Of a DNA stretch of 64,000 bases, positions 7,055 through 43,538 are shown piece after piece; the first letter of the stretch is position 1, and each line of letters begins with the position of its first letter. Where the stretch lies: the IMG/VR virus record IMGVR_UViG_3300022555_001761; one strand, written 5' to 3'. A program made the position numbers and the translations under genes. This DNA is from a virus. The notes beneath the pieces are model-generated. The model was not told the DNA's origin, searched no databases, and worked only from the letters and a program-made list of their open reading frames with translations.

Positions 7055-7274
7055 AAAGATTTCAACTGGAGAGATATTTGAATATGAACAATGTGTTTCT
7101 TATCCTGTATTTGATAGAACTCGAAATAACGGCACAATATATTTTGAATTAATTTCAAAAGGTAAGTTTGTTCTGGGTAAGTATATTGGTGAGGACGAAT
7201 TTTATGATGAATATATTGATATTAAAAAAGAAAGAAGACTTAAATTAGAAAAATTAAATCAAATTCTCCAATAA
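7041..7274 (+). CDS. family-B small protein (tail KKERRLKLEKLNQILQ)
   Basis: track ORF 77 aa. Confidence 0.5.
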   Translation: MKTCKKISTGEIFEYEQCVSYPVFDRTRNNGTIYFELISKGKFVLGKYIGEDEFYDEYIDIKKERRLKLEKLNQILQ

Positions 7275-10803: not shown

Positions 10804-11087
10804 TTTAATAATCTTAATTTTTCTAGTTTTTGTTTTCTGATATTTTGAATTTTTTTCATTTCAAATAATTTGATATCATATTCTGTAAATATGTCTTTAA
10901 TTGATTGTGTTGAGTCTATGTAAGTATATAATAATTTATTTTTTAAAAATATTTGTTTTTTATTTGTGCCTAATTTTTTTAAAATATTTTTAAAGAAATT
11001 GAACCCAAGTAAAAGGTAAAAAATCATAAATATAGAACATATAAATGATATAAAAAATAGTATTATTAATATTAAAACATCTAGCAT
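10800..11087 (-). CDS. family-B small membrane protein (tail IRKQKLEKLRLLK)
   Basis: track ORF 95 aa; the only minus-strand family-B member. Confidence 0.5.
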   Translation of the reverse strand: MLDVLILIILFFISFICSIFMIFYLLLGFNFFKNILKKLGTNKKQIFLKNKLLYTYIDSTQSIKDIFTEYDIKLFEMKKIQNIRKQKLEKLRLLK

Positions 11088-12833: not shown

Positions 12834-14042
12834 CTAAGTAGTTTCCTTACAAAGATTATACTTTATAAGAACTTTAGATAAATCTAAAGGCTCGTTCATA
12901 GAAGCAAAGTGATTTCCGAACCACCTATTCAATATATTTATGGCTGAATTTAAATCACGGTCTATAATTATGGTGTCTGATAACTGAACTTCCCTATTAC
13001 CAAGACTTATTTTATCTTTAAATAGTTTTCCAGTTAGACAGTTAATTTGTGTTGTCCATTTTTCATCAATTTTCACCAAGTTGGTATTTTTTGCTTGACA
13101 CTTATATGTAAGGAATTGTAGAAACATATTGATATTAGATTGACTAAATGACTTTCTAATACCTTTTTTATTCTCATTCACTCCTTCTGTTGACATTAGC
13201 CTCTTAACTGTTAGATCACCAACTACAATTGTATTGTAGTTCATATTCGATAACTTTTTACTCTGAATATGAAGAGTTTGTTTTATTTGTTCGTTCTTTT
13301 TATGATAACATTTATTTAATGTTTTTTTCAATAATAAGTTTCTATTTGATCCTTTTGTTGTTTTACTCCTTTTGTTTTGTATTTTTGCTATTTGTTTCTG
13401 ATAATAATCATTAATTTTTTTAGATTTATTTTTTAATACAATCATACCACCTTTATTATCTATTCCTGTTCCTAATTTACTTAACCCCAAATCAATAGCA
13501 AGAACTTTAGTTTTAACATTAACATCATTAAAATATTCTATTTTATCGTCAATCACCAAATCACACAACCATTTATGTCTAATAAATTTAATTCTTATTT
13601 CTTTTATTTTTAAATCTTTAATATTTAAATTTGATTTATATTCAAATGGAATTTGATTTAGAAAGAACAATCCTTTTTTTATCATCCATCCTGATTGATT
13701 AAAAGAAATAGTATGAAAATAATTATTTTCTATTTTTCTTGGTGGTTTAGCATTTTTATCTTTTTTTATCAAATTAAAAAATGACCTATAAGATCCATAT
13801 AATTCTGTTGCTATTGTTTGAATTGCCTTTGAATTTAATTTCTTCCAATCTGGATATTCTTCTTTTAATAATGGTAATAAATTATTTAACTTGAATTTAT
13901 CTAAAATTATTTTATCTGTTTCATATTTATCTTGTTGTATATCAAGCAATTTATTCCATATATCTTTACGAATATCAGATAATTCTTGTAATTCAAGAAT
14001 TTGTTCTTTTGATGGAAATAATCTTATTTGATACGTCTTCAT
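12834..14042 (-). CDS. tnpB: IS605-family TnpB-like protein with degenerate zinc finger
   Basis: 402 aa; RuvC-III DRDLNSAINI retained, but the CxxC...CxxC zinc finger is replaced by NCLTGK...QLSDT; no tnpA adjacent. Confidence 0.75.
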   Translation of the reverse strand: MKTYQIRLFPSKEQILELQELSDIRKDIWNKLLDIQQDKYETDKIILDKFKLNNLLPLLKEEYPDWKKLNSKAIQTIATELYGSYRSFFNLIKKDKNAKPPRKIENNYFHTISFNQSGWMIKKGLFFLNQIPFEYKSNLNIKDLKIKEIRIKFIRHKWLCDLVIDDKIEYFNDVNVKTKVLAIDLGLSKLGTGIDNKGGMIVLKNKSKKINDYYQKQIAKIQNKRSKTTKGSNRNLLLKKTLNKCYHKKNEQIKQTLHIQSKKLSNMNYNTIVVGDLTVKRLMSTEGVNENKKGIRKSFSQSNINMFLQFLTYKCQAKNTNLVKIDEKWTTQINCLTGKLFKDKISLGNREVQLSDTIIIDRDLNSAINILNRWFGNHFASMNEPLDLSKVLIKYNLCKETT

Positions 14043-14203: not shown

Positions 14204-14662
14204 ATGGAAAAGAAATATACATTTTTTTGGAATGGAGTTTTTAGTAACTGGCATAGAGCGATATTCAAAGTGGATGGTGTTACATTTAGTTCTGGGGAAC
14301 AGTACTTCATGTACAAAAAGGCTATTGTGTTTCACGATTTTGACTCTGCAGAAAAGATTATGAATGAAGAACATCCAAGAAGGCAAAAGGCTTTAGGAAA
14401 ATTAGTAAAGAATTTTAACAAAAAAACTTGGGATGATCTTTGTTATGATATAGTTAAGGATGGATTACGTGAAAAGTTTAAGCAAAATCCTGATATGAAA
14501 GAATATCTAATTAGTTGTAAAGACACTATTATTGTTGAAGCATCACCAGAGGATAGAATTTGGGGAATTGGATACGGAGAATGGGAAGCACTTGAAAATA
14601 TTGATGATTGGGGTCAAAATCTGTTAGGTAAAATATGTACTGAATTGGCTAATGAACTATGA
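14204..14662 (+). CDS. NADAR (YbiA-like) domain protein
   Basis: FFWNGVFSNWHRA...FSSGEQYFMYKKA...ASPEDRIWGIG NADAR signature. Confidence 0.8.
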   Translation: MEKKYTFFWNGVFSNWHRAIFKVDGVTFSSGEQYFMYKKAIVFHDFDSAEKIMNEEHPRRQKALGKLVKNFNKKTWDDLCYDIVKDGLREKFKQNPDMKEYLISCKDTIIVEASPEDRIWGIGYGEWEALENIDDWGQNLLGKICTELANEL

Positions 14663-14877
14663 AAAAATATTTTGTAATTAAAAACCGTGGTTGGGGTGCA
14701 TTAAAAGAAGGAGACGTGGTTGGTATAACCACTAATGAAGAATATGCAAAATCAAGAGTGGAATGGGCAACTTATTACGAAGAAGTTAAAATGCTTGATT
14801 TTCCAGATTCAATTAAAAAGATTAGAAAAAAGAAATTAAAAAAAATAAATAAAAATGGAAAAGAAATTACCAATTGA
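14659..14877 (+). CDS. family-B small protein (tail IRKKKLKKINKNGKEITN)
   Basis: track ORF 72 aa. Confidence 0.5.
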   Translation: MKKYFVIKNRGWGALKEGDVVGITTNEEYAKSRVEWATYYEEVKMLDFPDSIKKIRKKKLKKINKNGKEITN

Positions 14878-15623: not shown

Positions 15624-16079
15624 TTAAAATTTAGAGAGCAATTTTTGTTCTCTAAATTTTTTCATAGAATTTGAGATTTTATTTTTTTGTTCCTCACTAA
15701 GTTTAGTATAAACTCTTCCATTTCTTGCAGATTGTATATGTTCAACTGACTTCTTTTTACCCTTTGATGCCTTAGACATTTTTTCTCTTGTCTCTACTGA
15801 AAATATCCTACCAGTGCAACCTTTTCTTATTTTTTCTTTTCTATCATTTGATAACTTGGTACCTGTTAATGTTTTTGATATTTTTTCTTTAGTTTCATCA
15901 CTTAATGGTCCTTTTAGTACACCCTTTAATCTTTTTGACATTTTTTCTTTTGATTCTTCACTCATTTTTTGACCCTTATGTGACTCTGAATTTTTTAATG
16001 TGTGTTCAATTGATTTTTTCTTACCCTTTAATGCAGCAGACATCTTCAATTTTGTTTCTTCAGTATGATGATATCCCAT
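15624..16079 (-). CDS. standalone NUMOD3-repeat DNA-binding protein (homing-endonuclease remnant without nuclease domain)
   Basis: at least five repeats of the xSEETKEKISKxLKG type; no GIY-YIG or HNH domain. Confidence 0.55.
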   Translation of the reverse strand: MGYHHTEETKLKMSAALKGKKKSIEHTLKNSESHKGQKMSEESKEKMSKRLKGVLKGPLSDETKEKISKTLTGTKLSNDRKEKIRKGCTGRIFSVETREKMSKASKGKKKSVEHIQSARNGRVYTKLSEEQKNKISNSMKKFREQKLLSKF

Positions 16080-20933: not shown

Positions 20934-21334
20934 TAAGAGAATTTAAGGAATGGAAGTATCTTGCTTATCACGACTCATTAACTGGGTTATTAAACAGGAA
21001 CTGGCTTAATGCTTATAAAATGAGCATTAAGAATCCTTACGTTTATTTTATTGATATAAATAACTTGACTAAAATTAACAAAATGGGTCATACTGTTGGT
21101 GATATGCACATTATAAATGTTGTTAAGCACATTCCACAAGTTGATGGAGACTATTTAGTTCGTTATGCTGGAGATGAATTTATTTTATTCTCTAATTCTG
21201 AAAATTTAATTAGTACCAACAAATTATATTCTGTTGGTATGTCAATAAATATAGGTGATTTATCAAACTCTATTATGGAAGCTGACATTAAAATGATAGA
21301 ATCTAAAAAAAGATTTAAGAATGAGAACATTTAA
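20909..21334 (+). CDS. compact GGDEF-domain protein with degenerate AGDEF motif
   Basis: YHDSLTGLLNRNWL ... FIDINNLTKINKMGHTVGDMHI ... RYAGDEFILF. Confidence 0.65.
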   Translation: MFSRVTKIIREFKEWKYLAYHDSLTGLLNRNWLNAYKMSIKNPYVYFIDINNLTKINKMGHTVGDMHIINVVKHIPQVDGDYLVRYAGDEFILFSNSENLISTNKLYSVGMSINIGDLSNSIMEADIKMIESKKRFKNENI

Positions 21335-21566
21335 AGAAGGTGACAAATTGCTATGTTGTAAAAAATTTGATCATTTAAAAATTGGAAAATATTATGAAAT
21401 TATTTTATGCGGTTCATACCGACCATCTAATTGTTTTAATATAAGCGGATTTTGGTTTTCATTAAATAAAACATCATCAGTATACCCATATGTTTATGAA
21501 TATTTCTTTACTGAAAAAGAAGAAAGAAAATTAAAATTACAAATACTTAAATTAAAATCTATATGA
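21321..21566 (+). CDS. family-B small protein (tail EERKLKLQILKLKSI)
   Basis: track ORF 81 aa. Confidence 0.45.
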   Translation: MRTFKEGDKLLCCKKFDHLKIGKYYEIILCGSYRPSNCFNISGFWFSLNKTSSVYPYVYEYFFTEKEERKLKLQILKLKSI

Positions 21567-21853
21567 AAAATAAATGGCTCTGGTCAATGGTCATAGTAAA
21601 TATGTCAATTGTTATAGGTAGTGTTATACTAAATATTTTCACTAAAAATTATGTTGCTCTAACAGCTTGGGTCAACACTGGATTGTGGATATTTATTACA
21701 TTTATGACTCAAAAAAAAATGTACAAACAACAGGAAGAAATAGGTGATATGTGGACTGAAAATATTGAGTTTATTTTAGGTAGATTTAAAATCGATGAAA
21801 TTCAAAAATGGTTACGTAAAAAGAAATTAGAAAATTTAAAAAACAAAGAATAA
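21563..21853 (+). CDS. family-B small membrane protein (tail WLRKKKLENLKNKE)
   Basis: track ORF 96 aa; 2 TM; the tail matches 3725..3997 at peptide level. Confidence 0.55.
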   Translation: MKNKWLWSMVIVNMSIVIGSVILNIFTKNYVALTAWVNTGLWIFITFMTQKKMYKQQEEIGDMWTENIEFILGRFKIDEIQKWLRKKKLENLKNKE

Positions 21854-26395: not shown

Positions 26396-26539
26396 ATGAA
26401 AATTCAAAAAACATTCACAATTGAAGAAGATATTTCTAAGGAATTTGATAAAATATCAAAAGAGAAATCAATTAATAAATCTTTATTTTTAGAAAATGCA
26501 ATGAAAGATTTTATTGAAAAAAATAAGAAAGAAAAATGA
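26396..26539 (+). CDS. ribbon-helix-helix small protein upstream of the GIY-YIG gene
   Basis: 47 aa MKIQKTFTIEEDISKEFDKISKEKSINKSLFLENAMKDFIEKNKKEK; ATGA overlap with 26536. Confidence 0.5.
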   Translation: MKIQKTFTIEEDISKEFDKISKEKSINKSLFLENAMKDFIEKNKKEK

Positions 26540-27186
26540 TAGGTATATACAAAATTACAAATATTATAAATAATAAATGTTATATAGGTTCATCAGTAGA
26601 TATTGTAGGTAGATGGTATCATCATAAAACAACATTAAAATTTAATAAACATCATTCAATAAAATTACAAAGATCCTATAATAAATACGGTTCAGATAAT
26701 TTTAAGTATGAAATTGTAGAAGAATGTGAAACAGAATTATTATTAATTAGAGAAGAATACTATATCAACTTATTTGATTGTTATAATAATGGATATAATT
26801 TTTCAATACCATCGAATTGTGTTATGCTTGGCAGACATCATAGTGAAGAAACAAAAGAAATACTTAGAGAAAAAAGTAAGGGTAATAAAAATAGATTAAA
26901 TATGACATTTAGTGATGAATCTAAAAAGAAAATAAGTGACAAATTAAAAGGACGGAAATTGTCAGATGAAACTAAACTAAATATGAGCAAAGGACAGAAG
27001 AATAGAATTTATTCAGACGAAGACTTGAAAAAAATTACTGAAATAAATAAATCTAGAATAGGAATACCGTTATCAGATGAGCATAAACTTAAATTAAGTT
27101 TAGCAAAAGTAGGAAAGAAACAAAGTCCAGAAACTATTGCAAAAAGAGTACAAAAAAACACTGGTCAAAAAAGAAAAAAAACTTAA
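26536..27186 (+). CDS. GIY-YIG homing endonuclease with NUMOD3 repeats
   Basis: IGIYKITNIINNKCYIGSSVDIVGRWYHHK...REEYYINLF...NGYN plus HSEETKEILREKSKG repeats. Confidence 0.85.
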   Translation: MIGIYKITNIINNKCYIGSSVDIVGRWYHHKTTLKFNKHHSIKLQRSYNKYGSDNFKYEIVEECETELLLIREEYYINLFDCYNNGYNFSIPSNCVMLGRHHSEETKEILREKSKGNKNRLNMTFSDESKKKISDKLKGRKLSDETKLNMSKGQKNRIYSDEDLKKITEINKSRIGIPLSDEHKLKLSLAKVGKKQSPETIAKRVQKNTGQKRKKT

Positions 27187-28957: not shown

Positions 28958-29170
28958 CTACAAAGATACAAAAAATAAATTAAAAAAACAAGAAAGGAAG
29001 TAACATTTTTTAATATATAACATCCAGTTATATGACACTTCATATAATTCTAAATAGTCTTTGATATAGAAAATTTTATTAATAATATTTTTTAATCTTC
29101 TTGCTACTTTATTGCCTTCCTTTTCTTCTGGCTTTAATTTTATATCTTCAAATGCCTTAATATGTTTCAT
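28958..29170 (-). CDS. family-A-like small protein (MKHIKAFEDIK N-terminus; C-terminus atypical)
   Basis: track ORF 70 aa. Confidence 0.4.
   Translation of the reverse strand: MKHIKAFEDIKLKPEEKEGNKVARRLKNIINKIFYIKDYLELYEVSYNWMLYIKKCYFLSCFFNLFFVSL
28959..28968 (-). promoter_or_regulatory. -7 box TATCTTTGTA (minus strand)
   Basis: 22 nt upstream of start 28937; embedded in a 35-bp stretch repeated at 28331..28370. Confidence 0.45.
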
Positions 29171-29769
29171 ATGTTAAATTTTATTGAATCATTTTTTGCA
29201 TTTTGCGCTTCTATTTCTTCTGGTGTTGCAAATCTAAAATACTTTTTAAAAGAAGTTAATTGCATTTTATCATCAAGTATATAGCCATTTTCTGGACTAT
29301 TTGAATTGATACCATATTTAATTTTAATCATTTTTTCTGATGAACTGACTACTTCTCCAACATTGTTAGTTACAAAGTTCTTTTGTGCAGTATGACCATC
29401 TGAAATAAACGTTGGTAATCCAATCACAAAATCTTCAGATTCAAAATCTTGAAATGTTGGAGAGTAATTTTGTTGGATAGAATGCTCTAAATAATTTTCT
29501 TTAACAGGATTATCTTTTAAATACTGGGCTTGCTTTATAGTTTTGAAACTTATATCTCTTAACTTATTTATTTTATGATTTTTATCATTATTTAACTTTG
29601 TTCTCTTATGTGAATCTTTTTCTTTTTCTAATCTTTTTCTATCACTTTTAATACCTTTTTGTAAATATACCGCATTCTTCAACAGCCCTTTTTTTACTTT
29701 GAAAGGCTTTGCTGAATTGATTGTTATTGGTTTAAAATCCTCAAATGTCTTAATATGTTTCATACTCAT
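29167..29769 (-). CDS. family-A protein (MSMKHIKTFEDF...SIKFNI)
   Basis: track ORF 200 aa. Confidence 0.5.
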   Translation of the reverse strand: MSMKHIKTFEDFKPITINSAKPFKVKKGLLKNAVYLQKGIKSDRKRLEKEKDSHKRTKLNNDKNHKINKLRDISFKTIKQAQYLKDNPVKENYLEHSIQQNYSPTFQDFESEDFVIGLPTFISDGHTAQKNFVTNNVGEVVSSSEKMIKIKYGINSNSPENGYILDDKMQLTSFKKYFRFATPEEIEAQNAKNDSIKFNI

Positions 29770-29878: not shown

Positions 29879-30283
29879 ATGAAAATTCGTAGTGGTTTTG
29901 TAAGTAACTCATCTTCAAGTAGTTTTGTTATACTTAGAGATGCTATATCTAATAATCAATTAGATATGATAATAAACATGGATTATTGGATTCGTGAGTT
30001 TATTAACAGGGATGAAAATAATGGTGGATCAGAAAATTTAATGGATAAATTTTGTTATTATGAATCAGATCCTTGGTCAATTGAAGTAAATGATGATTAT
30101 GTCTTTGGTGAAACATCTATGGATAATTTTAGTATTGGTGATTATTTTGAATATATAAAAGTCGACATGAGTTTTGTAAAGTGGGATGATGGATATGTTT
30201 ATTCACCAACTGACGAACAACTTGAATTTATTGAAGAAAAGAAAAAACTTATTCAAAAACCTAATAATTTTATTGATTTATGA
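29879..30283 (+). CDS. hypothetical protein
   Basis: track ORF 134 aa. Confidence 0.4.
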   Translation: MKIRSGFVSNSSSSSFVILRDAISNNQLDMIINMDYWIREFINRDENNGGSENLMDKFCYYESDPWSIEVNDDYVFGETSMDNFSIGDYFEYIKVDMSFVKWDDGYVYSPTDEQLEFIEEKKKLIQKPNNFIDL

Positions 30284-30663
30284 TCTCAGAAATTCCACTA
30301 TTTGCAGTACTTATTTTGTGTAACGCTTTCTTTATACTTAAATATCTTAAATTAAAAAAAGCCATAAGGTCTTATGAAAGAATAGGAACTGGAAGATATG
30401 GTTTTTACAAATATATAGGAACATATAGTCATTATAGTGCTTATGTATATGTAAATGAAATTGATAGATATACAGATGGTTATTCAAAAATTAGAATTGA
30501 TAGAATTGAAGCTTTCACCAAATCAAGTGAAAGTGATGCAATTGAAAAATCAACAAATGCTTTTCTATCATTGAAACTAACAAATGAAATTGAATGGTTA
30601 GAGAGTGAAGATAATATAAAAAGAATTAGAAAAGAAAAATTAGAACAAATAGCTAAATTATAA
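30280..30663 (+). CDS. family-B membrane protein, paralog of 39619..40119
   Basis: N-terminal TM; EIDRYTDGYSKI ... NEIEWLESEDNIKRIRKEKLEQIAKL shared with 39619 (ELDRYTNGMSKI ... TEIEWLESEETIKELRKQKLKKIAEL). Confidence 0.55.
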   Translation: MISEIPLFAVLILCNAFFILKYLKLKKAIRSYERIGTGRYGFYKYIGTYSHYSAYVYVNEIDRYTDGYSKIRIDRIEAFTKSSESDAIEKSTNAFLSLKLTNEIEWLESEDNIKRIRKEKLEQIAKL

Positions 30664-30684: not shown

Positions 30685-30714
30685 TAGCCACTATCTAGTG
30701 GCTTTTTTATTTTA
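30685..30714 (+). terminator. rho-independent terminator
   Basis: AGCCACTA-tc-TAGTGGCTTTTTTATTTT. Confidence 0.7.
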
Positions 30715-30797
30715 AATTTTTTAAACTATTTGAAAATTTTTATCTATAGTCTTTACAGAATATAAAATTTTCATAGTATAAATCAAAAAACTAAATT

Positions 30798-33209
30798 ATG
30801 GGTTACGAAAACAAAAGAGGGGATTTAATTCTTCCACAAGGCACCTTTGTATATATACAAGACGGTGCTGCAGGTACAGTGCAAGTTGCAGTTGGACCTT
30901 ACAAAGAAAGCATTGGTGAGATTGACAAAATCGTTGTATTTGATGAAAAATCAAGAAAATTCATTCAAGTAAACGAGTTTAACGATGCAATCCAAGTTGC
31001 TAGATCAGCCGATGAAGGTCAATACATTGTGCTGATAAATCCAGCAGAGCCAAAAGACAATGAACAGAAATTCCCACAAAGAGGAAAGAATTCAACAATG
31101 GCAACTCTAAAAACAGGAAGCAAGGTAAATATTCCAGGTCCTGCTACATTTCCACTTTGGCCAGGTCAAATTGGTAAAGTATTAGACGGTCACAATCTTA
31201 AATACAATGAATATCTTATTGTAAGGGTTTACAACGAAGAACAAGCAAAGAAAAACCTTTCTAATGCTATTGTTAAAACTGCCGCATCAGATGATAAATC
31301 TAAATCACTGATCGCAAAAGAAGATTTAGTAACAGGCAAATTACTTGTTATTAAAGGTACAGATGTATCTTTTTACATTCCACCTACTGGTATTGAAGTT
31401 GTTTCTGAAAACGGAAACTATGTTCGTAAATCTGTCACATTAGAGAGATTAGAATATTGTATTCTATTAGATCAAAATGGTGACAAGAGGTACGAAAAAG
31501 GACCAGCAGTTGTTTTCCCTAAACCAACTGAAGAATTCCTTGAACAAGATGGTAAAAAGAAATTCAAAGCACTTGAATTGAATGACAATATGGGTATTTA
31601 CCTTAAAGTCATTGCTGATTATGAAGAAGATGGTCGTCAGTATAAAACTGGTGAAGAACTCTTTCTTACTGGCAAAGAACAAAAAATCTACTTCCCAAGA
31701 GAAGAACACGCTATTATCAAATATGATGATAGGGCTATGCATTATGCAGTTGCGATCACTGGTGGTGAAGCTCGCTATGTCCTTAACAAAGACACAGGTA
31801 GTATTTCATTATTTGTTGGTCCAAAAATGTTCATTCCAGACCCACGAAAAGAAGTAATCGTTAAGAGAATTCTTGATGAAAAAACTATCAAATTGTGGTT
31901 CCCTGATAGTATTGATGCACTTCAGCACAATAAAATATTAGAAGCTGAAATGAGTCAAAATGATTTTTCTGATCTTGGTTACAGAAGTAGTGCATATGTT
32001 GCTGAAAGAGGCGGATTCTCAAAACAAGTAAAAAGCTCATCTTTGAATATGGCAGATGAAATGAGTAGGAAAAACGCATTCACAAAACCAAGAACTTTGA
32101 CAATGGATAACAAGTACGAAGGTGCTGTTACTATCAATGTTTGGCCTGGTTATGCAGTTCAAATAGTTAAGAAAACTGGTGAACGTGAAGTTGTTGTTGG
32201 ACCAAAAGTTAGATTGCTTGAATTTGACGAAACACTTGAAGTTCTTGAACTTTCAACTGGTAAACCAAAAACAGACAATGTTTTAATGAAAACTGTCTAT
32301 CTTCAGACTGAAAACAATGTTGTATCAGACATTATTGATGCTGAAACAAAAGACTTAGTTAATGTTAAAATCCGTTTGTCTTACAGAGTTAACTTCACTG
32401 GAGATAATAAGAAATGGTTCAATGTTTCTAATTATGTGAAATTGATGACTCAACACCTTCGTTCACTTGTTCGTAACAGAGTGAAGAAAATCAACATCGA
32501 AGACTTTAATAGTGATCCTGCTGATATTCTTCGTGATACTGTATTAGGACCAGCAGAAGAAGGCAAGAAAAGGGTAGGTAAAACTTTCTCTGAGAATGGA
32601 ATGCATGTTTATGATATTGAAGTTCTTGATATTATCATTGGTGACAATGAAATCTCATACTTCCTTAAAGATTATCAGAAACATATTGTTAAACAGAATT
32701 TAGAAATGAATAAGCTTCAGAAAGATTTGGATAATACCAAAAAAGAAGAAGATATAACAAGACAAATTCTTGAAGAAAAAGCAAAAACAGAGGATATTCG
32801 TGTTACAATTAACAAATCTAAGATTGAAACTGCAAATTCTATTGAACTGTTGAAAGTAAATGCTGAAAAAGAAAGACAAGTAATTCTTGATGAAATTTCA
32901 AAAATGATTCTTGAAGTTAATAAACTTAAAGATGAACACAAACTTGAAGTTGATAAAGAAAGCTCTGATATTCGTACGGCAGAATATGAAAAACAGATGG
33001 CATCTATTCAGCCTAGATTGATTGAAGCAATGATTACACTTGGTGGTGTTAAAACTACTGAAATCCTTGCCAGAAATCTTAAAGAACAAGGTAATGATTG
33101 GACTAATATGTTCAAAAAAGGCGGAATTGACGGATTATTAGAAACAGTTAAAGGTACTCCTTTATATGATAATTTGATGGCGGTTCTTAATCCTGAAAAA
33201 CCAAAGTAA
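30798..33209 (+). CDS. major vault protein (MVP) homolog
   Basis: 803 aa; N-terminal MVP-repeat region ([80 protein letters not shown]), shoulder region alignable with vertebrate MVP ([26 protein letters not shown] vs [43 protein letters not shown] vs FDDFHKNSARIIRTAV) and a long C-terminal coiled coil (cap-helix equivalent). Confidence 0.8.
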   Translation: [803 protein letters not shown]

Positions 33210-33211
33210 TT

Positions 33212-33445
33212 ATGGAAAGTAGAAGTGAATTAATGACAGTTAGCCAATTGTATGAAGTTTTAACAAAATGTGTTAATAATGGATATGGTGATAAATTTAT
33301 TCAAGTAAATGAATATTTTGTTGGCTATGAAGAAGAAGATGAAGAACAATTTGGTATAGGTGAAGATCAAATATTATTGTCCGCAATTCATGTTCAAGAT
33401 ATTATTGAATATGGAGAAGAAACTGGTGATGAAATTGATTGCTAA
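33212..33445 (+). CDS. small highly acidic protein downstream of MVP
   Basis: track ORF 77 aa, EEEDEEQFGIGED; 2-nt gap after the MVP stop. Confidence 0.45.
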   Translation: MESRSELMTVSQLYEVLTKCVNNGYGDKFIQVNEYFVGYEEEDEEQFGIGEDQILLSAIHVQDIIEYGEETGDEIDC

Positions 33446-33448
33446 TTT

Positions 33449-33637
33449 ATGAAAAAGAAATTCAGAGAATTAGATTTAGATGGTCATAAATATGGCTGGA
33501 TCGTAAAAGATGACGATGATGGAAATTCATTACGCATATATAAAGATAAAAAAATAATTTATGACGAAGTAATATCAGGTGATATTGACATTACTCCAAA
33601 AATAGTAGCCGATATTATTTTTAAAGAAACTAAATAA
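33449..33637 (+). CDS. hypothetical small protein
   Basis: track ORF 62 aa. Confidence 0.4.
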   Translation: MKKKFRELDLDGHKYGWIVKDDDDGNSLRIYKDKKIIYDEVISGDIDITPKIVADIIFKETK

Positions 33638-33660
33638 ATATTTTTTGAATTAGAAAAAGA

Positions 33661-33697
33661 AAATGAGAAGTATTCACATACTTCTCATTTTTTATTT
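33661..33697 (+). terminator. rho-independent terminator closing the MVP operon
   Basis: AAATGAGAAGTAT-tcac-ATACTTCTCATTTTTTATTT. Confidence 0.7.
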
Positions 33698-33771: not shown

Positions 33772-34542
33772 ATGGAAAAACGACAAAAAATATGTGGTGT
33801 TTATAAGATAACCAACACATTAACTAAAAAGTATTATATTGGAAGTGCAGTTGATCTAAAAAATAGATTTAAATGTCACAAACAATTATTAAAAAATAAT
33901 AAACATTATAATAGTCACTTACAATCATCATATAATAAATATGGTAAAGAAAATTTTATTTATGAAATCATAGAAACCAATGACAATAAAGAAAATATAA
34001 TAGAAAGAGAACAGTATTGGATTAATTTTTTAGATGCTAATAATACTAAAAAAGGGTATAATAAAAGAATAATTGCCACATCAAATTTAGGAATTAAATC
34101 TTCAGAAAAAACAAAAGAAAAATTAAGACTTTCTCATTTGGGGCATAAACAAAGTGAAGAATCAAAAATAAAAATATCAGAATCACAATATAAAAAAGTT
34201 TGTCAATTTGATAAAAATGGTAATCATATTAATACATTTAATTCTTTTAAAGAAGCTTCTGAAAAAACAAATATTGTAGAACCTGGGATATCAATGGTAA
34301 TAAATAAAAAATTAAAAAGCACAGGTGGTTTTTATTGGTGTTTATTAGAAAATATAAATGAGTTTTCTATTCCAGTTTATAGAATAGATAAAAAACATAA
34401 AAAAATAAAAATAACTTGCTTAGAATCTAATGAAACATTTAATTTTGATTCTATACCAGAAGCAAGTAATAAATTAAACATATCAAAAACATTATTATAC
34501 ACAAAGAATAAAAATAAAAAATATAAATGGGAAAGAATTTAA
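33772..34542 (+). CDS. GIY-YIG homing endonuclease
   Basis: CGVYKITNTLTKKYYIGSAVDLKNRFKCHK ... REQYWINFLD ... GYN plus SEKTKEKLRLSHLG NUMOD-like repeats. Confidence 0.85.
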   Translation: MEKRQKICGVYKITNTLTKKYYIGSAVDLKNRFKCHKQLLKNNKHYNSHLQSSYNKYGKENFIYEIIETNDNKENIIEREQYWINFLDANNTKKGYNKRIIATSNLGIKSSEKTKEKLRLSHLGHKQSEESKIKISESQYKKVCQFDKNGNHINTFNSFKEASEKTNIVEPGISMVINKKLKSTGGFYWCLLENINEFSIPVYRIDKKHKKIKITCLESNETFNFDSIPEASNKLNISKTLLYTKNKNKKYKWERI

Positions 34543-34895
34543 AAAATATTTACCTTGACGACTTGAGAACACCATATGAAGATAAGTGGATAATTGTTAG
34601 AGGGTTCTATCAATTTATTGAAACTGTAGAATCAATTGGCTTAGAAAATATTGGTGCAATTTCATTAGATCATGATCTTGGAATATTTGTAGGTGAAGAA
34701 GAAAAAACTGGTTACGATTGTGCTAAATGGTTAGTCAATTTATCTATGGACAAAGGTATTAATCTTCCACAAATTTATGTTCACTCCGCTAATACAGTAG
34801 GATTACTGAATATTATAAACTATGTAAATAATTATTTACATTTTTGTGAGCAACCAGAAACTTGTTCTATTGGTTATACGGCATTTAAAATTTAA
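34527..34895 (+). CDS. hypothetical protein
   Basis: track ORF 122 aa. Confidence 0.4.
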   Translation: MGKNLKNIYLDDLRTPYEDKWIIVRGFYQFIETVESIGLENIGAISLDHDLGIFVGEEEKTGYDCAKWLVNLSMDKGINLPQIYVHSANTVGLLNIINYVNNYLHFCEQPETCSIGYTAFKI

Positions 34896-39618: not shown

Positions 39619-40119
39619 ATGCAAATTTTAATTTTAATAGCCTTGGGAGTATTCTTTTTAACAAGCATACTCTTTCTTGTTTTATACTTAAAGATGAAAG
39701 AAAAGTGTTCTAAAATTGACTTAGAACTAGAAAAATCACAATCAAACTACTCAACATTATCAAATTACTATGTAGAATTAAAAAATCTATCTAATAGAAA
39801 AGGATTTTATGAAAGTACATTAAATCTTATGAGTCCAGAAGAAAAAGAAAAAGGCTCAAAAGGTGAGCCATATACTTGCATTATTCATGTAAAAGAATTA
39901 GATAGATATACTAATGGTATGTCAAAAATTGAATTAACTAATGTAGAATTGATAGCTGGATTTGACAATTCACAATTTGATCATGTTAAAAATTCAATGA
40001 GAATTAAATTTTCTTCACTTAAGAAAACTACAGAAATAGAATGGCTTGAGAGTGAAGAAACTATAAAAGAATTAAGAAAGCAAAAACTTAAAAAAATAGC
40101 TGAACTTGAAAAAAATTGA
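39619..40119 (+). CDS. family-B membrane protein, paralog of 30280..30663
   Basis: track ORF 166 aa; tail IKELRKQKLKKIAELEKN. Confidence 0.55.
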   Translation: MQILILIALGVFFLTSILFLVLYLKMKEKCSKIDLELEKSQSNYSTLSNYYVELKNLSNRKGFYESTLNLMSPEEKEKGSKGEPYTCIIHVKELDRYTNGMSKIELTNVELIAGFDNSQFDHVKNSMRIKFSSLKKTTEIEWLESEETIKELRKQKLKKIAELEKN

Positions 40120-40417
40120 ATTTAAAATTGATGAAACTGTTCTTTGTAAGAAAAATTATGTTTATATATCCAATTCAAGATTGGTAAAAGATGATCCAAA
40201 TAAAGTATCATTTCTTAAAAATAAAAATTACAAAATATCAGATTTTTCTTACTGGGATGATGAAAATAAAATAATTATGTATCAAATTAATAATTGGTCA
40301 TTCGTTTCAACAAATGAAGTCCATAATTTATTCGTGCCAAGATTTGAAGATTATTTTTATACTAAAAAGGAAATTAGAAAATTGAAACTAAATAAAATAG
40401 AAAATGAAAGAGATTGA
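40106..40417 (+). CDS. family-B small protein (tail EIRKLKLNKIENERD)
   Basis: track ORF 103 aa. Confidence 0.5.
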   Translation: MKKIEFKIDETVLCKKNYVYISNSRLVKDDPNKVSFLKNKNYKISDFSYWDDENKIIMYQINNWSFVSTNEVHNLFVPRFEDYFYTKKEIRKLKLNKIENERD

Positions 40418-40880
40418 AAGAAAGTTTTTAGTTGATAAATATAAACTTTTATCTAATATTAAGTCAACTGATATAATTGAGGATTTTAATATAGAACAAG
40501 GTTATCTTTGTAAAGAAGATGGAATAACAGTCAGAATAAGAATACAAGATGATACTGGTTTCATTACAATTAAAGGTAAAACTGAAAACATTTCTAGAGA
40601 TGAGTATGAATATGAAATACCACTTCAGGATGCAAAGGATCTACTTAAAATGTGTGATAAAACAATAATTAAAGAACGATTAGTTATTGAATATTGTAAA
40701 AAAAATTGGTATGTTGATATATTTGATGGTAATAATATTGGTCTTGTAGTTGCTGAAATTGAACTAAAAAATGAAGATGAGGAATTTTCATCACCAGATT
40801 GGGTACTAAAAGAAGTTAGTGATGATGCAAGATACTACAATTCCAATTTGATAAGTAATCCATTCAATACTTGGAAATGA
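40404..40880 (+). CDS. CYTH-domain (triphosphate tunnel metalloenzyme) protein
   Basis: N-terminal EIERKFLV (ExExK) signature; about 158 aa, typical CYTH size. Confidence 0.7.
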   Translation: MKEIERKFLVDKYKLLSNIKSTDIIEDFNIEQGYLCKEDGITVRIRIQDDTGFITIKGKTENISRDEYEYEIPLQDAKDLLKMCDKTIIKERLVIEYCKKNWYVDIFDGNNIGLVVAEIELKNEDEEFSSPDWVLKEVSDDARYYNSNLISNPFNTWK

Positions 40881-41206
40881 GTTTTCTTAGTAGAATATTA
40901 TTTAAACCAGAAAAATTTGATATTGTATGTCATAACGAAAAAGAATGGAATGATATGCAACTTTTTTTATTTGAAAGAGGATACTATTGGGAAAATTATG
41001 GTAAAAATTTAATGTTTGAATTTAAATGGTGTTTTCCAAGAATATTGAAAAATTATAGAACTGGTGATATATTTGGAAGTAAAATACTAATTATAGAAAG
41101 TTATGAATTTGTAATGAAAAGAAAAGAACTAGGGTTCTATAAAAATGTAACTCCAATAAATGCAATTTCTTATATGAGAAAATTGAAATTAAAAAAAATA
41201 AAATGA
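40871..41206 (+). CDS. family-B small protein (tail YMRKLKLKKIK)
   Basis: track ORF 111 aa. Confidence 0.5.
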   Translation: MEMSFLSRILFKPEKFDIVCHNEKEWNDMQLFLFERGYYWENYGKNLMFEFKWCFPRILKNYRTGDIFGSKILIIESYEFVMKRKELGFYKNVTPINAISYMRKLKLKKIK

Positions 41207-41469
41207 GTACAGTAGTATATGCTAAATATAATTTTGTTGAATATAAATCTTCTGGTGAAGTAAAAAAATATTATGACAAAGAAAATGTATTTGCTCTATA
41301 TATTTTCAAATCTGGTTGGGAACATTTGCATCATTGTATTTTAGAATCAGGTGATTTTGAAACTGTAGATTATTATACTTACACATCTGAACAAATACAT
41401 AAAACATTTGGTATTAAATCATTTTCAAGAAAAGAAAAATTAAATAAGATAAATGCAAGCACTTTGTAA
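41203..41469 (+). CDS. family-B small protein (tail SRKEKLNKINASTL)
   Basis: track ORF 88 aa. Confidence 0.5.
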   Translation: MSTVVYAKYNFVEYKSSGEVKKYYDKENVFALYIFKSGWEHLHHCILESGDFETVDYYTYTSEQIHKTFGIKSFSRKEKLNKINASTL

Positions 41470-41716
41470 AAAAAATTATCATTTTTTTGAAAAAGGAAAG
41501 TATTATAAAATTGATAATATACATTCTGTATTTCAAAAAGATGATTTTATAAGTCTCAATTATGGTAACGATTTATTCAGATTTAGATTAAATCGTTCAT
41601 TAGAATGTATTGAAGGATTTATTGGTGAATTTGAAGTGTACTTTTATGACTATTTCTACAACGTTCAAGACCAAAGAAAAGCTAAATTAGAAAAATTATC
41701 AAATGTAAATTCATGA
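41453..41716 (+). CDS. family-B small protein (tail QRKAKLEKLSNVNS)
   Basis: track ORF 87 aa; its 3' end converges on the tnpB 3' end. Confidence 0.5.
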   Translation: MQALCKKNYHFFEKGKYYKIDNIHSVFQKDDFISLNYGNDLFRFRLNRSLECIEGFIGEFEVYFYDYFYNVQDQRKAKLEKLSNVNS

Positions 41717-41756: not shown

Positions 41757-42944
41757 TCAGGAAACAAGTTCCTTCTTTTTAAGCGTTTCGTTGCTTGTGC
41801 CAATCGAAATTGGTCTTATTTTTGCTCCACGCTCGTAATCAGACGTTCCATCTGATATATTTTTTCTATATCCTTCATTAAGAATATTTATTGATGCATT
41901 TATATCTCTATCATGTTTTCCACCACATTTAGGACAAATCCAAGTTCTATCATTTAAGGTTAAATTGTTGTTAATCCAACCACATTTAGAACAGGTTTTA
42001 GATGAAGGAAAAAGCCTATCTATATGAATGACTTGTTTATCATTCCAAAGTGCTTTATATTCTAAAACATCTATAAATCTACCCCAACTAACATCTGAAA
42101 TTGCTTTTGATAGTTTATGATTTTTCATCATTCCTTTAATATTTAAGTCTTCCAAATAAATTATATCAAAATCATGAATTAGTTTATTAATTGTTTTATG
42201 AATTAAATCCATTCGTGAGTTAGTTATTTTTTCATGAATTCTAGCAACTTTTAATCTTTGCTTTTCATATCTATTTGATCCTTTTGTTTTCCTTGATAGA
42301 TATTTCTGATTTAAGGATAATTTTTTTTCATAATTATTTAGAAATCTGTGGTTCTTGATTTTCGTTCCATCAGATAACACTAAAAAGTCTTTTATTCCTA
42401 AATCTATTCCTACTGATTGATTTGTTTTTTTATTTGGTTGATATTCTTGCTCTGTTAAAATTGATACAAAATATTTTCCAGTAGGAGTTTTTGATATAAC
42501 ACAATGCCTTATATTGCCTTTAATTTGTCTTTCCATTATCATTTCTATACCATCAAGGAACTTTGGAACAAACAATTTAGTTCCGTTGTATCTTACATTC
42601 TGTGGTATAGTAAATGAATTTTTATTTCTTTTTGATTTGAAATTAGGAAATTTAGTTCTTTTATTAAAAAATCCTTGGTATGCCATATCTAAGCATTTCA
42701 AAGAGTATTGTAATGTTTGTGAGTTTATTTCTTTCAACCAAGTATTAATTTTCTTTATTTGTGTTAATTCTCCTGCTTGATCATAATAATTTACTGATTT
42801 TTTATTATTTAAATATTCCTCTTTACGTTGGTTTAAAAAATAATTATAAGTCCATCTAACAGAGCCAAAGTGTTTATTTAATAACACTTGTTGAATTTCT
42901 GTTGGTTCTAACCTGAATTTATATGTGTATTTAATTATTCTCAT
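41757..42944 (-). CDS. tnpB: IS605/IS1341-family TnpB (intact zinc finger and RuvC motifs), no tnpA
   Basis: 395 aa; GIDLGIKDF (RuvC-I), TSKTCSKCG...ICPKCGGKHDRDINASINI (zinc finger plus RuvC-III). Confidence 0.85.
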   Translation of the reverse strand: MRIIKYTYKFRLEPTEIQQVLLNKHFGSVRWTYNYFLNQRKEEYLNNKKSVNYYDQAGELTQIKKINTWLKEINSQTLQYSLKCLDMAYQGFFNKRTKFPNFKSKRNKNSFTIPQNVRYNGTKLFVPKFLDGIEMIMERQIKGNIRHCVISKTPTGKYFVSILTEQEYQPNKKTNQSVGIDLGIKDFLVLSDGTKIKNHRFLNNYEKKLSLNQKYLSRKTKGSNRYEKQRLKVARIHEKITNSRMDLIHKTINKLIHDFDIIYLEDLNIKGMMKNHKLSKAISDVSWGRFIDVLEYKALWNDKQVIHIDRLFPSSKTCSKCGWINNNLTLNDRTWICPKCGGKHDRDINASINILNEGYRKNISDGTSDYERGAKIRPISIGTSNETLKKKELVS

Positions 42945-43106: not shown

Positions 43107-43538
43107 ATGAAATACACATTTTTATTTATATTCATTCTATCATTTCTTTCAATAAAAGCTCAAACTACATCATTACTTTTAGGAAGAGTATTAGATGAAA
43201 AAACAAATACACCAATTGAAAATGTAAATGTTAAAATAACTTATTCTCCTTGGAATATATCAAAAACAACAATTTCTGATAAAAAAGGAATTTTCTCAGT
43301 ATCAAATCTTTCACCAGGAGGACCTTACATTGTGAAATTCTCTTGTAGTGAATATGAAGATCAAATTAGAGAATTATCATCATTGGATCTTGGAAGTAAT
43401 AATTTGTCTTTACATATGAGAAAAACAAAGATTGATGAATTAGCAAATGTAGATAAACAAATATTAGAATTTCGTACTAAAGAATCAATTCTATTATTAG
43501 AAATGATAAAAATAGTAAAAAATGATTGTATGAAATAA
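43107..43538 (+). CDS. secreted CarboxypepD_reg-like domain protein
   Basis: signal peptide ending SIKAQ; LLGRVLDEKTNTPIENVNVKI...SDKKGIFSVSNLSPGGPYIVKFS. Confidence 0.55.
   Translation: MKYTFLFIFILSFLSIKAQTTSLLLGRVLDEKTNTPIENVNVKITYSPWNISKTTISDKKGIFSVSNLSPGGPYIVKFSCSEYEDQIRELSSLDLGSNNLSLHMRKTKIDELANVDKQILEFRTKESILLLEMIKIVKNDCMK

What the first reader, a model, noticed from the sequence alone, without database searches (positions are those of the whole stretch)
30798..33697. Full-length major vault protein (MVP) homolog in a prokaryote/virus-like, Bacteroidota-promoter context, with two small downstream ORFs
The 803-aa ORF aligns along its whole length with eukaryotic MVP: the N-terminal MVP repeats, the shoulder region and a long C-terminal coiled coil equivalent to the cap-helix. 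It forms a compact operon with a very acidic 77-aa ORF and a 62-aa ORF, and is closed by a strong terminator. Vault shells are classically eukaryotic and bacterial or viral MVP homologs are rare and uncharacterised. Together with the two tagged small-protein families in this window, this raises the possibility of a vault-like nanocompartment with dedicated cargo, which would be a new system in this lineage.
Basis: partly seen in the sequence, partly recalled or inferred. Interest (0 to 1): 0.85.

Follow-up and report, generated by a model that had tools for sequence, protein, structure and literature searches.

The report
Vault-shell protein gene in a huge phage
A very large, AT-rich bacteriophage carries a full-length, strongly conserved relative of the protein that builds eukaryotic "vault" particles; such phage and bacterial relatives are common and have been noted before, and the proposed operon partners and "cargo tags" are not linked to it.

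Summary
The 803-aa ORF at 30798-33209 is a genuine full-length major vault protein (MVP) homolog. Pfam MVP_shoulder and Vault_3 pass their curated cut-offs. The family profile matches PDB MVP at E=7e-32. The AlphaFold model's best Foldseek hits are whole vault MVP chains (E~1e-26) and the murine R1-R7 crystal structures (E~1e-9).

The window is part of a huge, ~26% GC phage related to Mahaphage-type genomes.

- MVP relatives are not rare: >6,000 metagenomic clusters, at least 357 bacterial species genomes and at least 187 IMG/VR contigs.
- A 2023 preprint already described phage MVPs.
- The 77-aa and 62-aa ORFs are a strain-specific insertion between the MVP stop codon and its ancestral terminator. 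They are absent from 169 other MVP loci.
- The C-terminal tag (R-[KR]-x-K-L-x-x-[LI]) is real, on 16 window ORFs. It is confined to this phage clade and does not track MVP.

The most likely role is a stand-alone, self-assembling vault-like cage made during infection. Its cargo and purpose are unknown. I rate it a new member of a known kind, of moderate interest.

The parts
30686..30703 (+). Terminator-like hairpin closing the upstream gene (30280-30663). It marks the 5' boundary of the MVP transcription unit.
   Evidence: 7-bp stem with 4 GC pairs, followed by TTTTTTATTTT; a hairpin at the same place in L004 with different stem bases that still pair.
30704..30797 (+). Non-coding leader and probable promoter region of the MVP gene. 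No promoter class could be assigned.
   Evidence: conserved with L004 (TTTTATCTATAG..TTTACAGAATAT); no TAnnTTTG here; only weak sigma-70-like matches.
30798..33209 (+). Major vault protein (MVP) homolog, 803 aa, soluble.
   Evidence: no TM segment (max Kyte-Doolittle 0.98); dN/dS 0.06-0.19.
30822..31871 (+). N-terminal beta-repeat body (residues ~9-358), about six small beta domains equivalent to MVP repeats.
   Evidence: strand pattern, with pLDDT 80-93 for residues 10-210 and lower for 213-315. Foldseek to murine MVP R1-R7, E 9e-10; profile piece 213-346 against MVP 275-409; residues 211-358 are the best-conserved part of the family.
31878..32093 (+). Poorly conserved helical plus disordered insertion (residues 361-432), at the position of MVP repeat R8.
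   Evidence: helices 361-392, pLDDT below 50 for 391-427; conservation 0.29. Register offsets.
32094..32294 (+). Last repeat(s) before the shoulder (residues 433-499), containing the invariant S-T-G-x-P-K-T-D loop (486-493). This loop is equivalent to the human MVP 'keyhole loop'.
   Evidence: Pfam Vault_3, residues 444-502; invariant S486, P490, K491. Alignment read against the residues listed in PMC12280208.
32316..32642 (+). Shoulder (SPFH-like) domain, residues 507-615.
   Evidence: MVP_shoulder 1.7e-26; Band_7 at 21.5 bits is below its 23.6 cut-off; pLDDT 86-94; second-tier Foldseek hits to HflK/C, flotillin, prohibitin and stomatin.
32646..33038 (+). Cap-helix equivalent: one continuous 131-residue helix (residues 617-747), 40% charged.
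   Evidence: profile alignment to the MVP cap-helix up to residue ~825.
33048..33206 (+). C-terminal short helices (residues 751-803), at the position of the MVP cap-ring. Low confidence and low conservation.
   Evidence: pLDDT 33-63; conservation 0.26.
33212..33445 (+). Acidic 77-aa ORF, co-transcribed with MVP in this strain only. A near-orphan.
   Evidence: pI 4.05; 3 clusters among 5.8e9 proteins; no hit in 169 MVP loci; its relatives are not beside MVP.
33449..33637 (+). 62-aa ORF. It belongs to a widespread ~60-aa domain family (MKKKFRxITVDGxKYxW...IW.DKKIIY...ITPK) that is not linked to MVP.
   Evidence: 93 representative clusters; alignment; one member is fused to cREC_REC; no hit in MVP loci.
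33658..33693 (+). Intrinsic terminator of the unit, homologous to the terminator that directly follows the MVP stop codon in L004.
   Evidence: dG -17.5 kcal/mol, z -6.1; aligned with L004, with a compensatory G:C to A:T change.
33772..34542 (+). GIY-YIG/NUMOD homing endonuclease inserted between the terminator and cREC_REC. It is not part of the MVP unit.
   Evidence: absent at this site in L004; one of several copies in the window.
34527..34895 (+). cREC_REC gene. It is the ancestral downstream neighbour of MVP in the closest relatives, but only there.
   Evidence: PF20274, 2e-22.; found in only 5 of 169 loci.

Best explanation
The 803-aa ORF is a genuine prokaryote/phage-type major vault protein carried by a huge, AT-rich (Mahaphage-like) phage. 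The host is probably a member of the Bacteroidota.

Ancestrally the gene is a stand-alone unit: upstream terminator, leader, MVP, terminator. In this strain two small ORFs were inserted between the stop codon and the terminator, and a GIY-YIG homing endonuclease was inserted after the terminator. These are lineage-specific passengers, not partners.

Inferred mechanism: during infection the soluble protein self-assembles. Side-by-side packing of the beta-repeat body and the SPFH-like shoulder, plus bundling of the long C-terminal helices, would give a ring, then a dome, then probably a closed vault-like hollow cage in the host cytoplasm. No conserved partner gene is linked to it. The function therefore probably resides in the shell itself, as sequestration or shielding of a generic cellular or phage component. 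That component could be a nucleotide-type ligand bound at the invariant S-T-G-x-P-K-T-D loop.

Shown: homology, fold, conservation, stand-alone genetics and wide distribution in large phages and bacteria. Inferred: assembly into a cage, and any cargo or function.
For: Family membership:
- Pfam MVP_shoulder and Vault_3 score above their cut-offs.
- Profile against PDB MVP gives E=7.3e-32 over R9, shoulder and cap-helix.
- Foldseek gives full-length MVP matches at E~1e-26 and MVP R1-R7 at E~1e-9.
- The model shows repeats, a shoulder and a 131-residue helix, with no TM segment.

Phage context:
- Full-length tblastn hits occur only in the 462-735 kb huge phages LR756500/1/3. The 735-kb genome is a Bacteroidetes-infecting Mahaphage.
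- Homologs lie on 222-531 kb contigs.
- The window is collinear with phage contig L004.
- The window carries homing endonucleases, TnpB, an RCC1 protein and a SusC-like outer-membrane protein.

Selection:
- dN/dS is 0.06-0.19.
- About 90 columns are invariant across 147 sequences.

Stand-alone gene:
- No neighbour family occurs in more than 11 of 123 dereplicated loci.
- The small ORFs are absent from all other loci.
- The terminator is homologous to the one directly after MVP in L004.

Distribution:
- More than 6,000 clusters, at least 357 GTDB genomes and at least 187 IMG/VR contigs, 38 of the 79 listed being 100 kb or longer.
- Phage sequences separate from bacterial chromosomal ones in an NJ tree.

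The keyhole-loop G-[KR]-P-K is conserved from human to phage.
Against: - There is no direct evidence that any prokaryotic or phage MVP forms a vault.
- The cap-helix and C-terminal region drive closure of the eukaryotic vault cap. They are the least conserved parts (0.26-0.29 against ~0.6 for the body), and the helix is shorter than in rat MVP.
- The register suggests about one repeat fewer at the N-terminus and an insertion at 361-432. The geometry could therefore differ.
- AlphaFold confidence is low for residues 213-261 and 296-315.
- Most human NAD+-pocket residues are not conserved: R507 to T, H509 to N, R511 to L, W545 to V.
- Expression timing and localisation are unknown.
Confidence: 0.6

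Rival explanations
1. MVP plus the 77-aa and 62-aa ORFs form a dedicated nanocompartment operon. The small proteins carrying the basic C-terminal tag (R-[KR]-x-K-L-x-x-[LI]) are cargo docked inside the vault.
For: - The three ORFs are 2-3 nt apart and share one terminator.
- The tag is highly non-random: 16 of 129 ORFs against 0.03 expected, always 9-17 residues from the C-terminus, with synonymous codon variation.
- The gene immediately upstream of MVP carries it.
- The arrangement is stable across more than 30 contigs of this strain.
Against: - The small ORFs are absent from the 91%-identical relative and from all 169 MVP loci.
- The 77-aa ORF is a near-orphan.
- Relatives of both small ORFs sit away from MVP.
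- The one fusion found for the 62-aa domain is with cREC_REC, not MVP.
- The tag is found on 0 of 1,565 ORFs in other MVP phage loci and on 1 of 841 ORFs in bacterial loci with distant MVPs.
- Within the clade, genes adjacent to MVP are tagged only in the WIN/L004 group.
- The tag density of 12-19% of ORFs is far higher than expected for cargo of a single shell.
Confidence: 0.07
2. The protein works as an SPFH-type scaffold: an open ring or single dome, possibly at the membrane or around a protease or complex as with HflK/C, flotillin or prohibitin. It would not be a closed two-halved vault.
For: - The shoulder is SPFH-like. Band_7 scores 21.5 bits, just under its cut-off.
- Foldseek matches HflK/C, flotillin, prohibitin, erlin and stomatin cages at E 1e-7 to 1e-5 over shoulder plus helix.
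- NCBI names one bacterial homolog 'SPFH domain-containing protein'.
- The cap region and the N-terminal ~120 residues (the waist contact) are among the less conserved parts.
Against: - There is no TM segment or membrane anchor.
- About 500 residues of MVP-type beta repeats, which classical SPFH proteins lack, are present. Residues 121-358 and 433-499 are the most conserved parts.
- Full-length MVP chains outscore SPFH proteins by about 19 orders of magnitude in E-value.
Confidence: 0.25
3. The MVP homolog is a virion component: an inner-capsid, scaffold or decoration protein, or an alternative shell for nucleic acid.
For: - Vault-like shells resemble capsids. The idea is raised in the 2023 preprint.
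- The gene is widespread and conserved in large phages.
Against: - The gene lies among small hypothetical genes, homing endonucleases, a glucosaminidase, and nucleotide or replication genes (dUTPase, DNA polymerase B, DHFR, NAD synthase in L002). It is not in a structural module.
- Close homologs (42-48% identity) are chromosomal in free-living bacteria such as Bernardetia, Microscilla and Nannocystis.
- There is no PHROG structural family hit.
Confidence: 0.06
4. Artefact: a eukaryotic or bacterial contaminant, or a chimeric assembly, placed an MVP gene in a phage-like contig.
For: MVP is classically eukaryotic. The local GC (0.29-0.31) is slightly above the window mean of ~0.26.
Against: - The identical arrangement is seen on more than 30 independent contigs.
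- The flanks are syntenic in relatives, including contigs of 400-531 kb.
- Identity to human MVP is only ~15-17% in the structural alignments, whereas phage relatives reach 91%.
- The gene is an intron-free ORF flanked by phage-style terminators.
Confidence: 0.01

Closest known systems
Eukaryotic major vault protein (rat, human and rabbit vault shell; PDB 4V60, 9BW5, 9Z4W)
   Same: - Same domain order and similar length: beta repeats, then the last repeat with the G-[KR]-P-K loop, then the SPFH-like shoulder, a long cap-helix and a short C-terminal region.
- Pfam MVP_shoulder and Vault_3 score above their cut-offs.
- Foldseek gives full-length matches at E~1e-26.
   Different: - Only ~15-17% identity.
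- PF01505 Vault repeats are not detected by sequence.
- About one repeat fewer at the N-terminus, and a 70-residue helical/disordered insertion at 361-432.
- A shorter helix (131 residues against ~155).
- No TEP1, PARP4 or vault RNA was found in the window, and no conserved neighbour family was found in related loci.
- Most NAD+-pocket residues are not conserved.
- Assembly has not been shown.
Bacterial MVP homologs (Cytophagales such as Bernardetia litoralis, Microscilla marina and Thermoflexibacter ruber; Myxococcota such as Nannocystis and Enhygromyxa). See Daly et al. 2013, PMC3762200.
   Same: - 42-48% identity over the full length and the same Pfam architecture.
- They are also stand-alone genes without conserved neighbours.
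- Their function is also unknown.
   Different: - The bacterial genes are chromosomal, whereas this one is phage-borne.
- The phage sequences group apart from the bacterial ones in the NJ tree.
Phage MVPs of gut Caudoviricetes ctOa11 and ct2Ri15 (Santos et al. 2023, bioRxiv 10.1101/2023.11.10.566534)
   Same: - Phage-encoded MVP homologs of ~811 aa with predicted repeats, shoulder and cap-helix.
- They lie outside the structural module.
- They are related to bacterial rather than eukaryotic MVPs, and their function is unknown.
   Different: - Those phages are placed near phages of Bacillota. This one belongs to a ~26% GC huge-phage lineage related to the 462-735 kb Mahaphage-type genomes.
- The preprint knew of two cases. 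Here at least 187 IMG/VR contigs and thousands of metagenomic clusters were found.
SPFH/Band-7 cage proteins (HflK/C, flotillin, prohibitin, stomatin, erlin)
   Same: The shoulder plus long helix resembles the SPFH domain plus coiled coil that builds ring or dome cages.
   Different: This protein has no membrane anchor, it has ~500 residues of N-terminal MVP repeats, and Band_7 scores below the Pfam cut-off.

Membership tests
Major vault protein family | MVP shoulder domain (Pfam PF11978) above the gathering score | tested here: met
   93 bits against a cut-off of 25, E=1.7e-26, residues 506-615 covering profile positions 2-117 of 118.
Major vault protein family | MVP repeat domains detectable by sequence (Pfam Vault PF01505, Vault_2, Vault_3, Vault_4) | tested here: inconclusive
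   only Vault_3 (PF17795) passes, at 39 bits against 28.8 for residues 444-502. PF01505, Vault_2 and Vault_4 were not reported at E<=0.1; profile piece 213-346 against MVP 275-409 has i-E 0.03.
Major vault protein family | N-terminal array of small beta-sandwich repeats with the MVP repeat fold | tested here: met
   repeated 4-6-strand units over residues 9-358 and 433-499. Foldseek to the murine MVP R1-R7 crystal structures at E 9e-10 to 2e-8. The exact number of repeats was not determined, and confidence is low for 213-261 and 296-315.
Major vault protein family | Long cap-helix directly after the shoulder, collinear with MVP | tested here: met
   a single helix at 617-747, pLDDT 72-92; aligned to MVP residues ~647-825.
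Major vault protein family | Assembly into a hollow 78-mer (2 x 39) vault particle | not testable with these tools
   No multimer prediction or experiment was available. In the library searched, no paper reports a particle from a prokaryotic or phage MVP.
Major vault protein family | Association with minor vault components (TEP1/TROVE, PARP4, vault RNA) | tested here: not met
   - No such Pfam domain was found in the 18 window ORFs scanned.
- No Rfam family reached gathering score in the 64 kb window.
- No conserved neighbour family was found in 123 loci.
- The preprint also found no TEP1 or vPARP in phage genomes.
- These components are not universal even among eukaryotes, so this does not exclude membership.
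SPFH / Band 7 family | Band_7 (PF01145) domain above the gathering score, usually with a membrane anchor | tested here: not met
   21.5 bits, below the 23.6 cut-off; no TM segment. There is structural resemblance only.
Shell-plus-targeting-peptide nanocompartment (encapsulin-like logic) | Cargo genes with a short terminal targeting peptide that co-occur with the shell gene across lineages | tested here: not met
   the tag is present only in the clade with MVP at least 70% identical (122 of 640 ORFs), and on 0 of 1,565 ORFs in other MVP phage loci; no consistent adjacency. The shell fold is MVP, not HK97.

The most novel reading that the evidence does not exclude
Huge phages of this clade build vault-like cages in the infected Bacteroidota cell. 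The clade-specific basic C-terminal tag (R-[KR]-x-K-L-x-x-[LI]), carried by 12-19% of their small proteins, is a targeting peptide that loads these proteins into or onto the cage. This would be a phage-made proteinaceous organelle with dozens of clients, and the first functional handle on vaults.
Probability: 0.06. Interest if true: 0.92.

Novelty: new member of a known kind. Interest (0 to 1): 0.5.

Why it matters
Nearly 40 years after their discovery, the function of vaults is still unknown. A strongly conserved MVP family that is widespread in jumbo and huge phages and in culturable bacteria (Bernardetia, Microscilla, Nannocystis) offers genetically tractable systems. These could be used to ask what an MVP shell does and whether it really assembles outside eukaryotes.

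For phage biology, a self-assembling 90-kDa shell protein kept under purifying selection across phages spanning 22-67% GC suggests a general infection-stage function, such as sequestration, shielding or nucleotide binding. No such function is currently described.

This particular locus adds no new principle. It is one more member of the family. Its apparent 'operon' and 'cargo' are a local insertion and an unrelated, though itself curious, lineage-specific tag.

Tried and rejected
1. The first AlphaFold run used a shallow alignment of 30 sequences and gave pLDDT 55 with an uninterpretable N-terminus. It was replaced by a 147-sequence alignment.
2. I looked for conserved neighbours by clustering ORFs from 170 loci. 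Nothing occurred in more than 11 of 123 groups, and the top family is homing-endonuclease-like.
3. A VWA gene and a zinc-ribbon gene lie ~5 kb upstream of MVP in L001, L004 and L007, which recalled the vWA domains of TEP1 and PARP4. They are absent from the window and not adjacent, so I dropped the lead.
4. IMG/VR pattern scans for the two small ORFs found nothing.
5. NAD+/ADP-ribose pocket conservation: only the G-[KR]-P-K part of the keyhole loop and an Asp-to-Asn position are kept. This is not enough to claim nucleotide binding.
6. The Bacteroidota -7 promoter motif is not enriched and is absent upstream of MVP. Sigma-70-like matches are at background level.
7. An Rfam scan for vault, Y or other RNAs found nothing.
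8. PHROGs gave no informative hit for MVP.
9. The contexts of relatives of the small ORFs are short contigs and were uninformative, except that they lack MVP.
10. One call failed on a wrong frame end and was repeated.


Full report
**1. Observation**

All are on the + strand, separated by 2 and 3 nt. The 77-aa product is very acidic (pI 4.05; 20 D/E against 3 K/R). A 16-bp hairpin followed by a U-run lies at 33658-33693, with dG -17.5 kcal/mol and z=-6.1 against shuffles. A second terminator-like hairpin at 30686-30703 closes the upstream gene. The physical unit is therefore terminator, leader, MVP, 77 aa, 62 aa, terminator.

**2. Is it an MVP?**

Yes.
- Pfam MVP_shoulder scores 93 bits against a cut-off of 25 (residues 506-615). 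Vault_3 scores 39 bits against 28.8 (residues 444-502). Band_7 falls just short of its cut-off.
- phmmer against PDB finds only MVP chains, at E=8.5e-11.
- Family profiles raise this to 2.6e-31 and 7.3e-32. The alignment covers residues ~447-781 against MVP 461-825 (R9, shoulder, cap-helix). A weak collinear piece covers 213-346 against 275-409.
- The first AlphaFold model, built from 30 sequences, was poor. The second, built from 147 sequences at 42-91% identity, has mean pLDDT 73. It shows repeated small beta domains over 9-358, a helical/disordered insertion at 361-432, further beta repeats at 433-499, the shoulder at 507-615, one continuous helix at 617-747, and short C-terminal helices.
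- Foldseek against the PDB ranks whole vault MVP chains first (rabbit 9Z4W, human 9BW5/9BW6, rat 4V60; E 9e-27 to 1e-21, aligned over the full length). The murine MVP R1-R7 crystal structures follow (E 9e-10). SPFH cage proteins such as HflK/C, flotillin, prohibitin and stomatin come only after that.
- The protein has no TM segment.

Three caveats apply. The N-terminal homology rests mainly on the predicted structure. PF01505 is not detected. The register suggests about one repeat fewer at the N-terminus and an insertion where MVP has R8.

**3. What genome is this?**

- The window is ~26% GC and has no tRNA gene.
- It encodes GIY-YIG/NUMOD homing endonucleases, two TnpB genes, an RCC1-repeat protein, DNA methyltransferases, an intein-containing glycosyltransferase, sugar-nucleotide enzymes and a SusC/TonB-type outer-membrane protein.
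- In the phage collection, the MVP finds full-length matches in only three records: the huge uncultured phages LR756500 (462 kb, 53% identity) and LR756501/LR756503 (735 kb, 49% identity).
- Al-Shayeb et al. 2020 place the 735-kb genome in the Mahaphage clade, predicted to replicate in Bacteroidetes. That paper never mentions vaults.
- Close homologs (72-91% identity) lie on contigs up to 531 kb.
- The window is collinear with phage contig L004 over ~20 kb, apart from indels.
- Contamination is excluded. The identical arrangement occurs on more than 30 contigs from independent samples.

**4. The 'operon'**

- In L004 (MVP 91% identical) the MVP stop codon is followed directly by a terminator hairpin and then by the cREC_REC gene.
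- That hairpin is homologous to the one that follows the 62-aa ORF in the window: AAAATGAGAA[G/A]TATT...[C/T]TTCTCATTTTTT, with a compensatory change.
- So the two small ORFs sit between the MVP stop codon and its ancestral terminator. The GIY-YIG gene sits between the terminator and cREC_REC.
- Neither small ORF has any tblastn hit (E<=0.01) in 169 MVP-containing loci totalling 2.15 Mb, nor in the IMG/VR pattern scans.
- The 77-aa protein has only three clusters among 5.8 billion proteins. Its two relatives are on short contigs without an adjacent MVP.
- The 62-aa protein belongs to a real ~60-aa domain family with 93 representative clusters. One member is fused to a cREC_REC domain. Other members are not beside MVP.
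- The small ORFs are therefore co-transcribed passengers in this strain, not conserved MVP partners.

**5. Does MVP have any conserved partner?**

I clustered all ORFs from 170 loci, which fall into 123 dereplicated groups split roughly evenly between viral and bacterial. No family occurs in more than 11 groups, and the top family is homing-endonuclease-like. The closest relatives share up2, (up1), MVP, (cREC) and a glucosaminidase on the opposite strand, but this synteny fades below ~80% MVP identity. No TEP1, PARP or TROVE domain was seen in the 18 window ORFs scanned, and no Rfam RNA was found in the window.

**6. The 'tagged families'**

- The two families share a single motif, R-[KR]-x-K-L-x-x-[LI], located 9-17 residues from the C-terminus.
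- It occurs on 16 of 129 window ORFs, against 0.03 expected from shuffles, with one occurrence elsewhere. Codon usage varies synonymously, which points to protein-level selection.
- It is confined to the clade whose MVP is at least 70% identical (122 of 640 ORFs). It is found on 0 of 1,565 ORFs in other MVP-carrying phage loci, and is essentially absent from bacterial MVP loci.
- Within the clade, the genes flanking MVP are tagged only in the WIN/L004 group.
- The tag is a striking lineage-specific feature, but it does not co-vary with MVP. The cargo idea is unsupported, though not strictly excluded for this clade.

**7. Distribution and evolution**

- MVP relatives are abundant. 6,069 and 6,939 clusters scored E<=1e-3 in two capped searches. 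All listed hits are ~800 aa with the same Pfam architecture, and JGI often names them 'major vault protein'.
- At least 357 GTDB species genomes carry one. These include isolates of Nannocystis, Enhygromyxa, Thermoflexibacter, Bernardetia and Microscilla at 42-48% identity.
- At least 187 IMG/VR contigs carry one. Of the 79 listed, 38 are 100 kb or longer and 17 are 200 kb or longer.
- In an NJ tree, phage sequences (loci spanning 22-67% GC) separate from bacterial chromosomal ones. The few 'genome' sequences among the phages are MAG contigs with phage-like composition.
- dN/dS against relatives is 0.06-0.19.
- The body repeats and shoulder are the most conserved parts (~0.6-0.66). The insertion, cap-helix and C-terminus are the least conserved (~0.26-0.29).

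**8. Mechanism**

By homology, the most likely activity is self-assembly into a ring or dome, and probably into a closed vault-like cage in the cytoplasm of the infected cell. The absence of linked partners argues that the shell itself is the functional unit.

The most conserved motif, S-T-G-x-P-K-T-D (486-493), aligns with the human 'keyhole loop' (G503-R504-P505-K506). That loop lines the NAD+/ADP-ribose pocket (PMC12280208; bioRxiv 10.64898/2026.05.01.722283). Most other pocket residues differ, however, so nucleotide binding is only a lead.

Assembly, cargo and biological role are all inferred. In the library searched, no paper reports a particle from a prokaryotic or phage MVP.

**9. Comparison with what is known, and novelty**

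- Bacterial MVP homologs have been known since at least Daly et al. 2013 (PMC3762200, listed).
- Phage MVPs were described in silico in two gut Caudoviricetes by Santos et al. 2023.
- Borg elements also encode predicted vault proteins.
- This locus is a new member of that known kind, in a different (huge-phage) lineage.
- What this analysis adds is that the family is widespread and apparently long-resident in jumbo and huge phages, genetically stand-alone, and under strong constraint.

Interest is moderate. The system could make the old question of vault function tractable. The specific claims that made the finding look exceptional (rarity, operon, cargo) do not hold.

Noticed in passing
window 3725-3997, 3994-4212, 6252-6653, 6848-7054, 7041-7274, 10800-11087(-), 14659-14877, 21321-21566, 21563-21853, 30280-30663, 39619-40119, 40106-40417, 40871-41206, 41203-41469, 41453-41716, 49644-49895: Sixteen otherwise unrelated small ORFs share a basic C-terminal motif, R-[KR]-x-K-L-x-x-[LI], 9-17 residues from the end. 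Shuffles give 0.03 expected, and the codons vary synonymously. The motif is carried by 12-19% of ORFs in this phage clade only, on 122 of 640 ORFs there against 0 of 1,565 in other MVP phage loci. Its function is unknown; it could be a targeting or binding tag. It deserves its own study.
   Followed up: partly
window 33449-33637 and 34527-34895; protein P0273: The 62-aa ORF belongs to a ~60-aa domain family with 93 representative clusters. One member (P0273, 211 aa) is fused to a cREC_REC domain, the same family as the window gene two positions downstream. This hints at a functional link between this small domain and cREC_REC rather than MVP.
   Followed up: partly
window 7259-8197(-), 26536-27186, 33772-34542; NUMOD-only ORFs 2801-3055 and 15624-16079(-): There are several GIY-YIG/NUMOD homing-endonuclease genes and fragments in 64 kb. 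The copy at 33772-34542 is an insertion relative to L004. The copy at 33772 has a TAnnTTTG motif ~55 nt upstream.
   Followed up: partly
window 12834-14042(-) and 41757-42944(-): Two TnpB (OrfB_IS605 / Cas12f-like TNB) genes. The second has no tblastn counterpart in the syntenic region of L004.
   Followed up: no
window 49888-52218: A group-1 glycosyltransferase interrupted by an intein splicing domain. A relative in L009 has an intein-bearing DegT aminotransferase.
   Followed up: no
window 52660-55926 and 43107-43538: A phage-encoded 1,088-aa SusC/TonB-dependent-receptor-like outer-membrane barrel with an N-terminal CarboxypepD_reg domain. A 143-aa ORF is similar to its N-terminal part. I read this, from my own knowledge of the family, as a Bacteroidota-type surface protein and a host clue.
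   Followed up: no
window 329-1576(-): An RCC1-repeat (WD40_RLD) protein of 415 aa.
   Followed up: no
window 29167-29769(-): This 200-aa ORF matches the N-terminus of a 438-aa L004 gene and, separately, a 110-aa L004 gene. This suggests a deletion that fused two genes and removed the block between them, which includes the VWA gene.
   Followed up: partly
window 30280-30663 and 39619-40119: The gene just upstream of MVP has a paralog 9 kb downstream. Both have a hydrophobic N-terminal stretch, a conserved core (..ELDRYT.G.SKI.. / ..TEIEWLESE..) and the C-terminal tag.
   Followed up: no
L012 (Promethearchaeota MAG), L019 (Methanosarcinales MAG), L014/L043/L046/L054/L072 (CPR MAGs), L011: MAG contigs assigned to archaea or CPR bacteria carry phage-type MVPs. 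L012 is 77% identical at 25% GC and has tagged ORFs. These contigs group with the phage sequences in the tree. They are probably huge-phage contigs binned with cellular genomes.
   Followed up: partly
BFVD entry A0A3G5A4K1 (Harvfovirus sp., 802 aa): A giant-virus 'prohibitin domain-containing protein' aligns structurally over the full length of the phage MVP model (E 2.7e-10, 886 columns). It may be an unrecognised MVP homolog in the Nucleocytoviricota.
   Followed up: no
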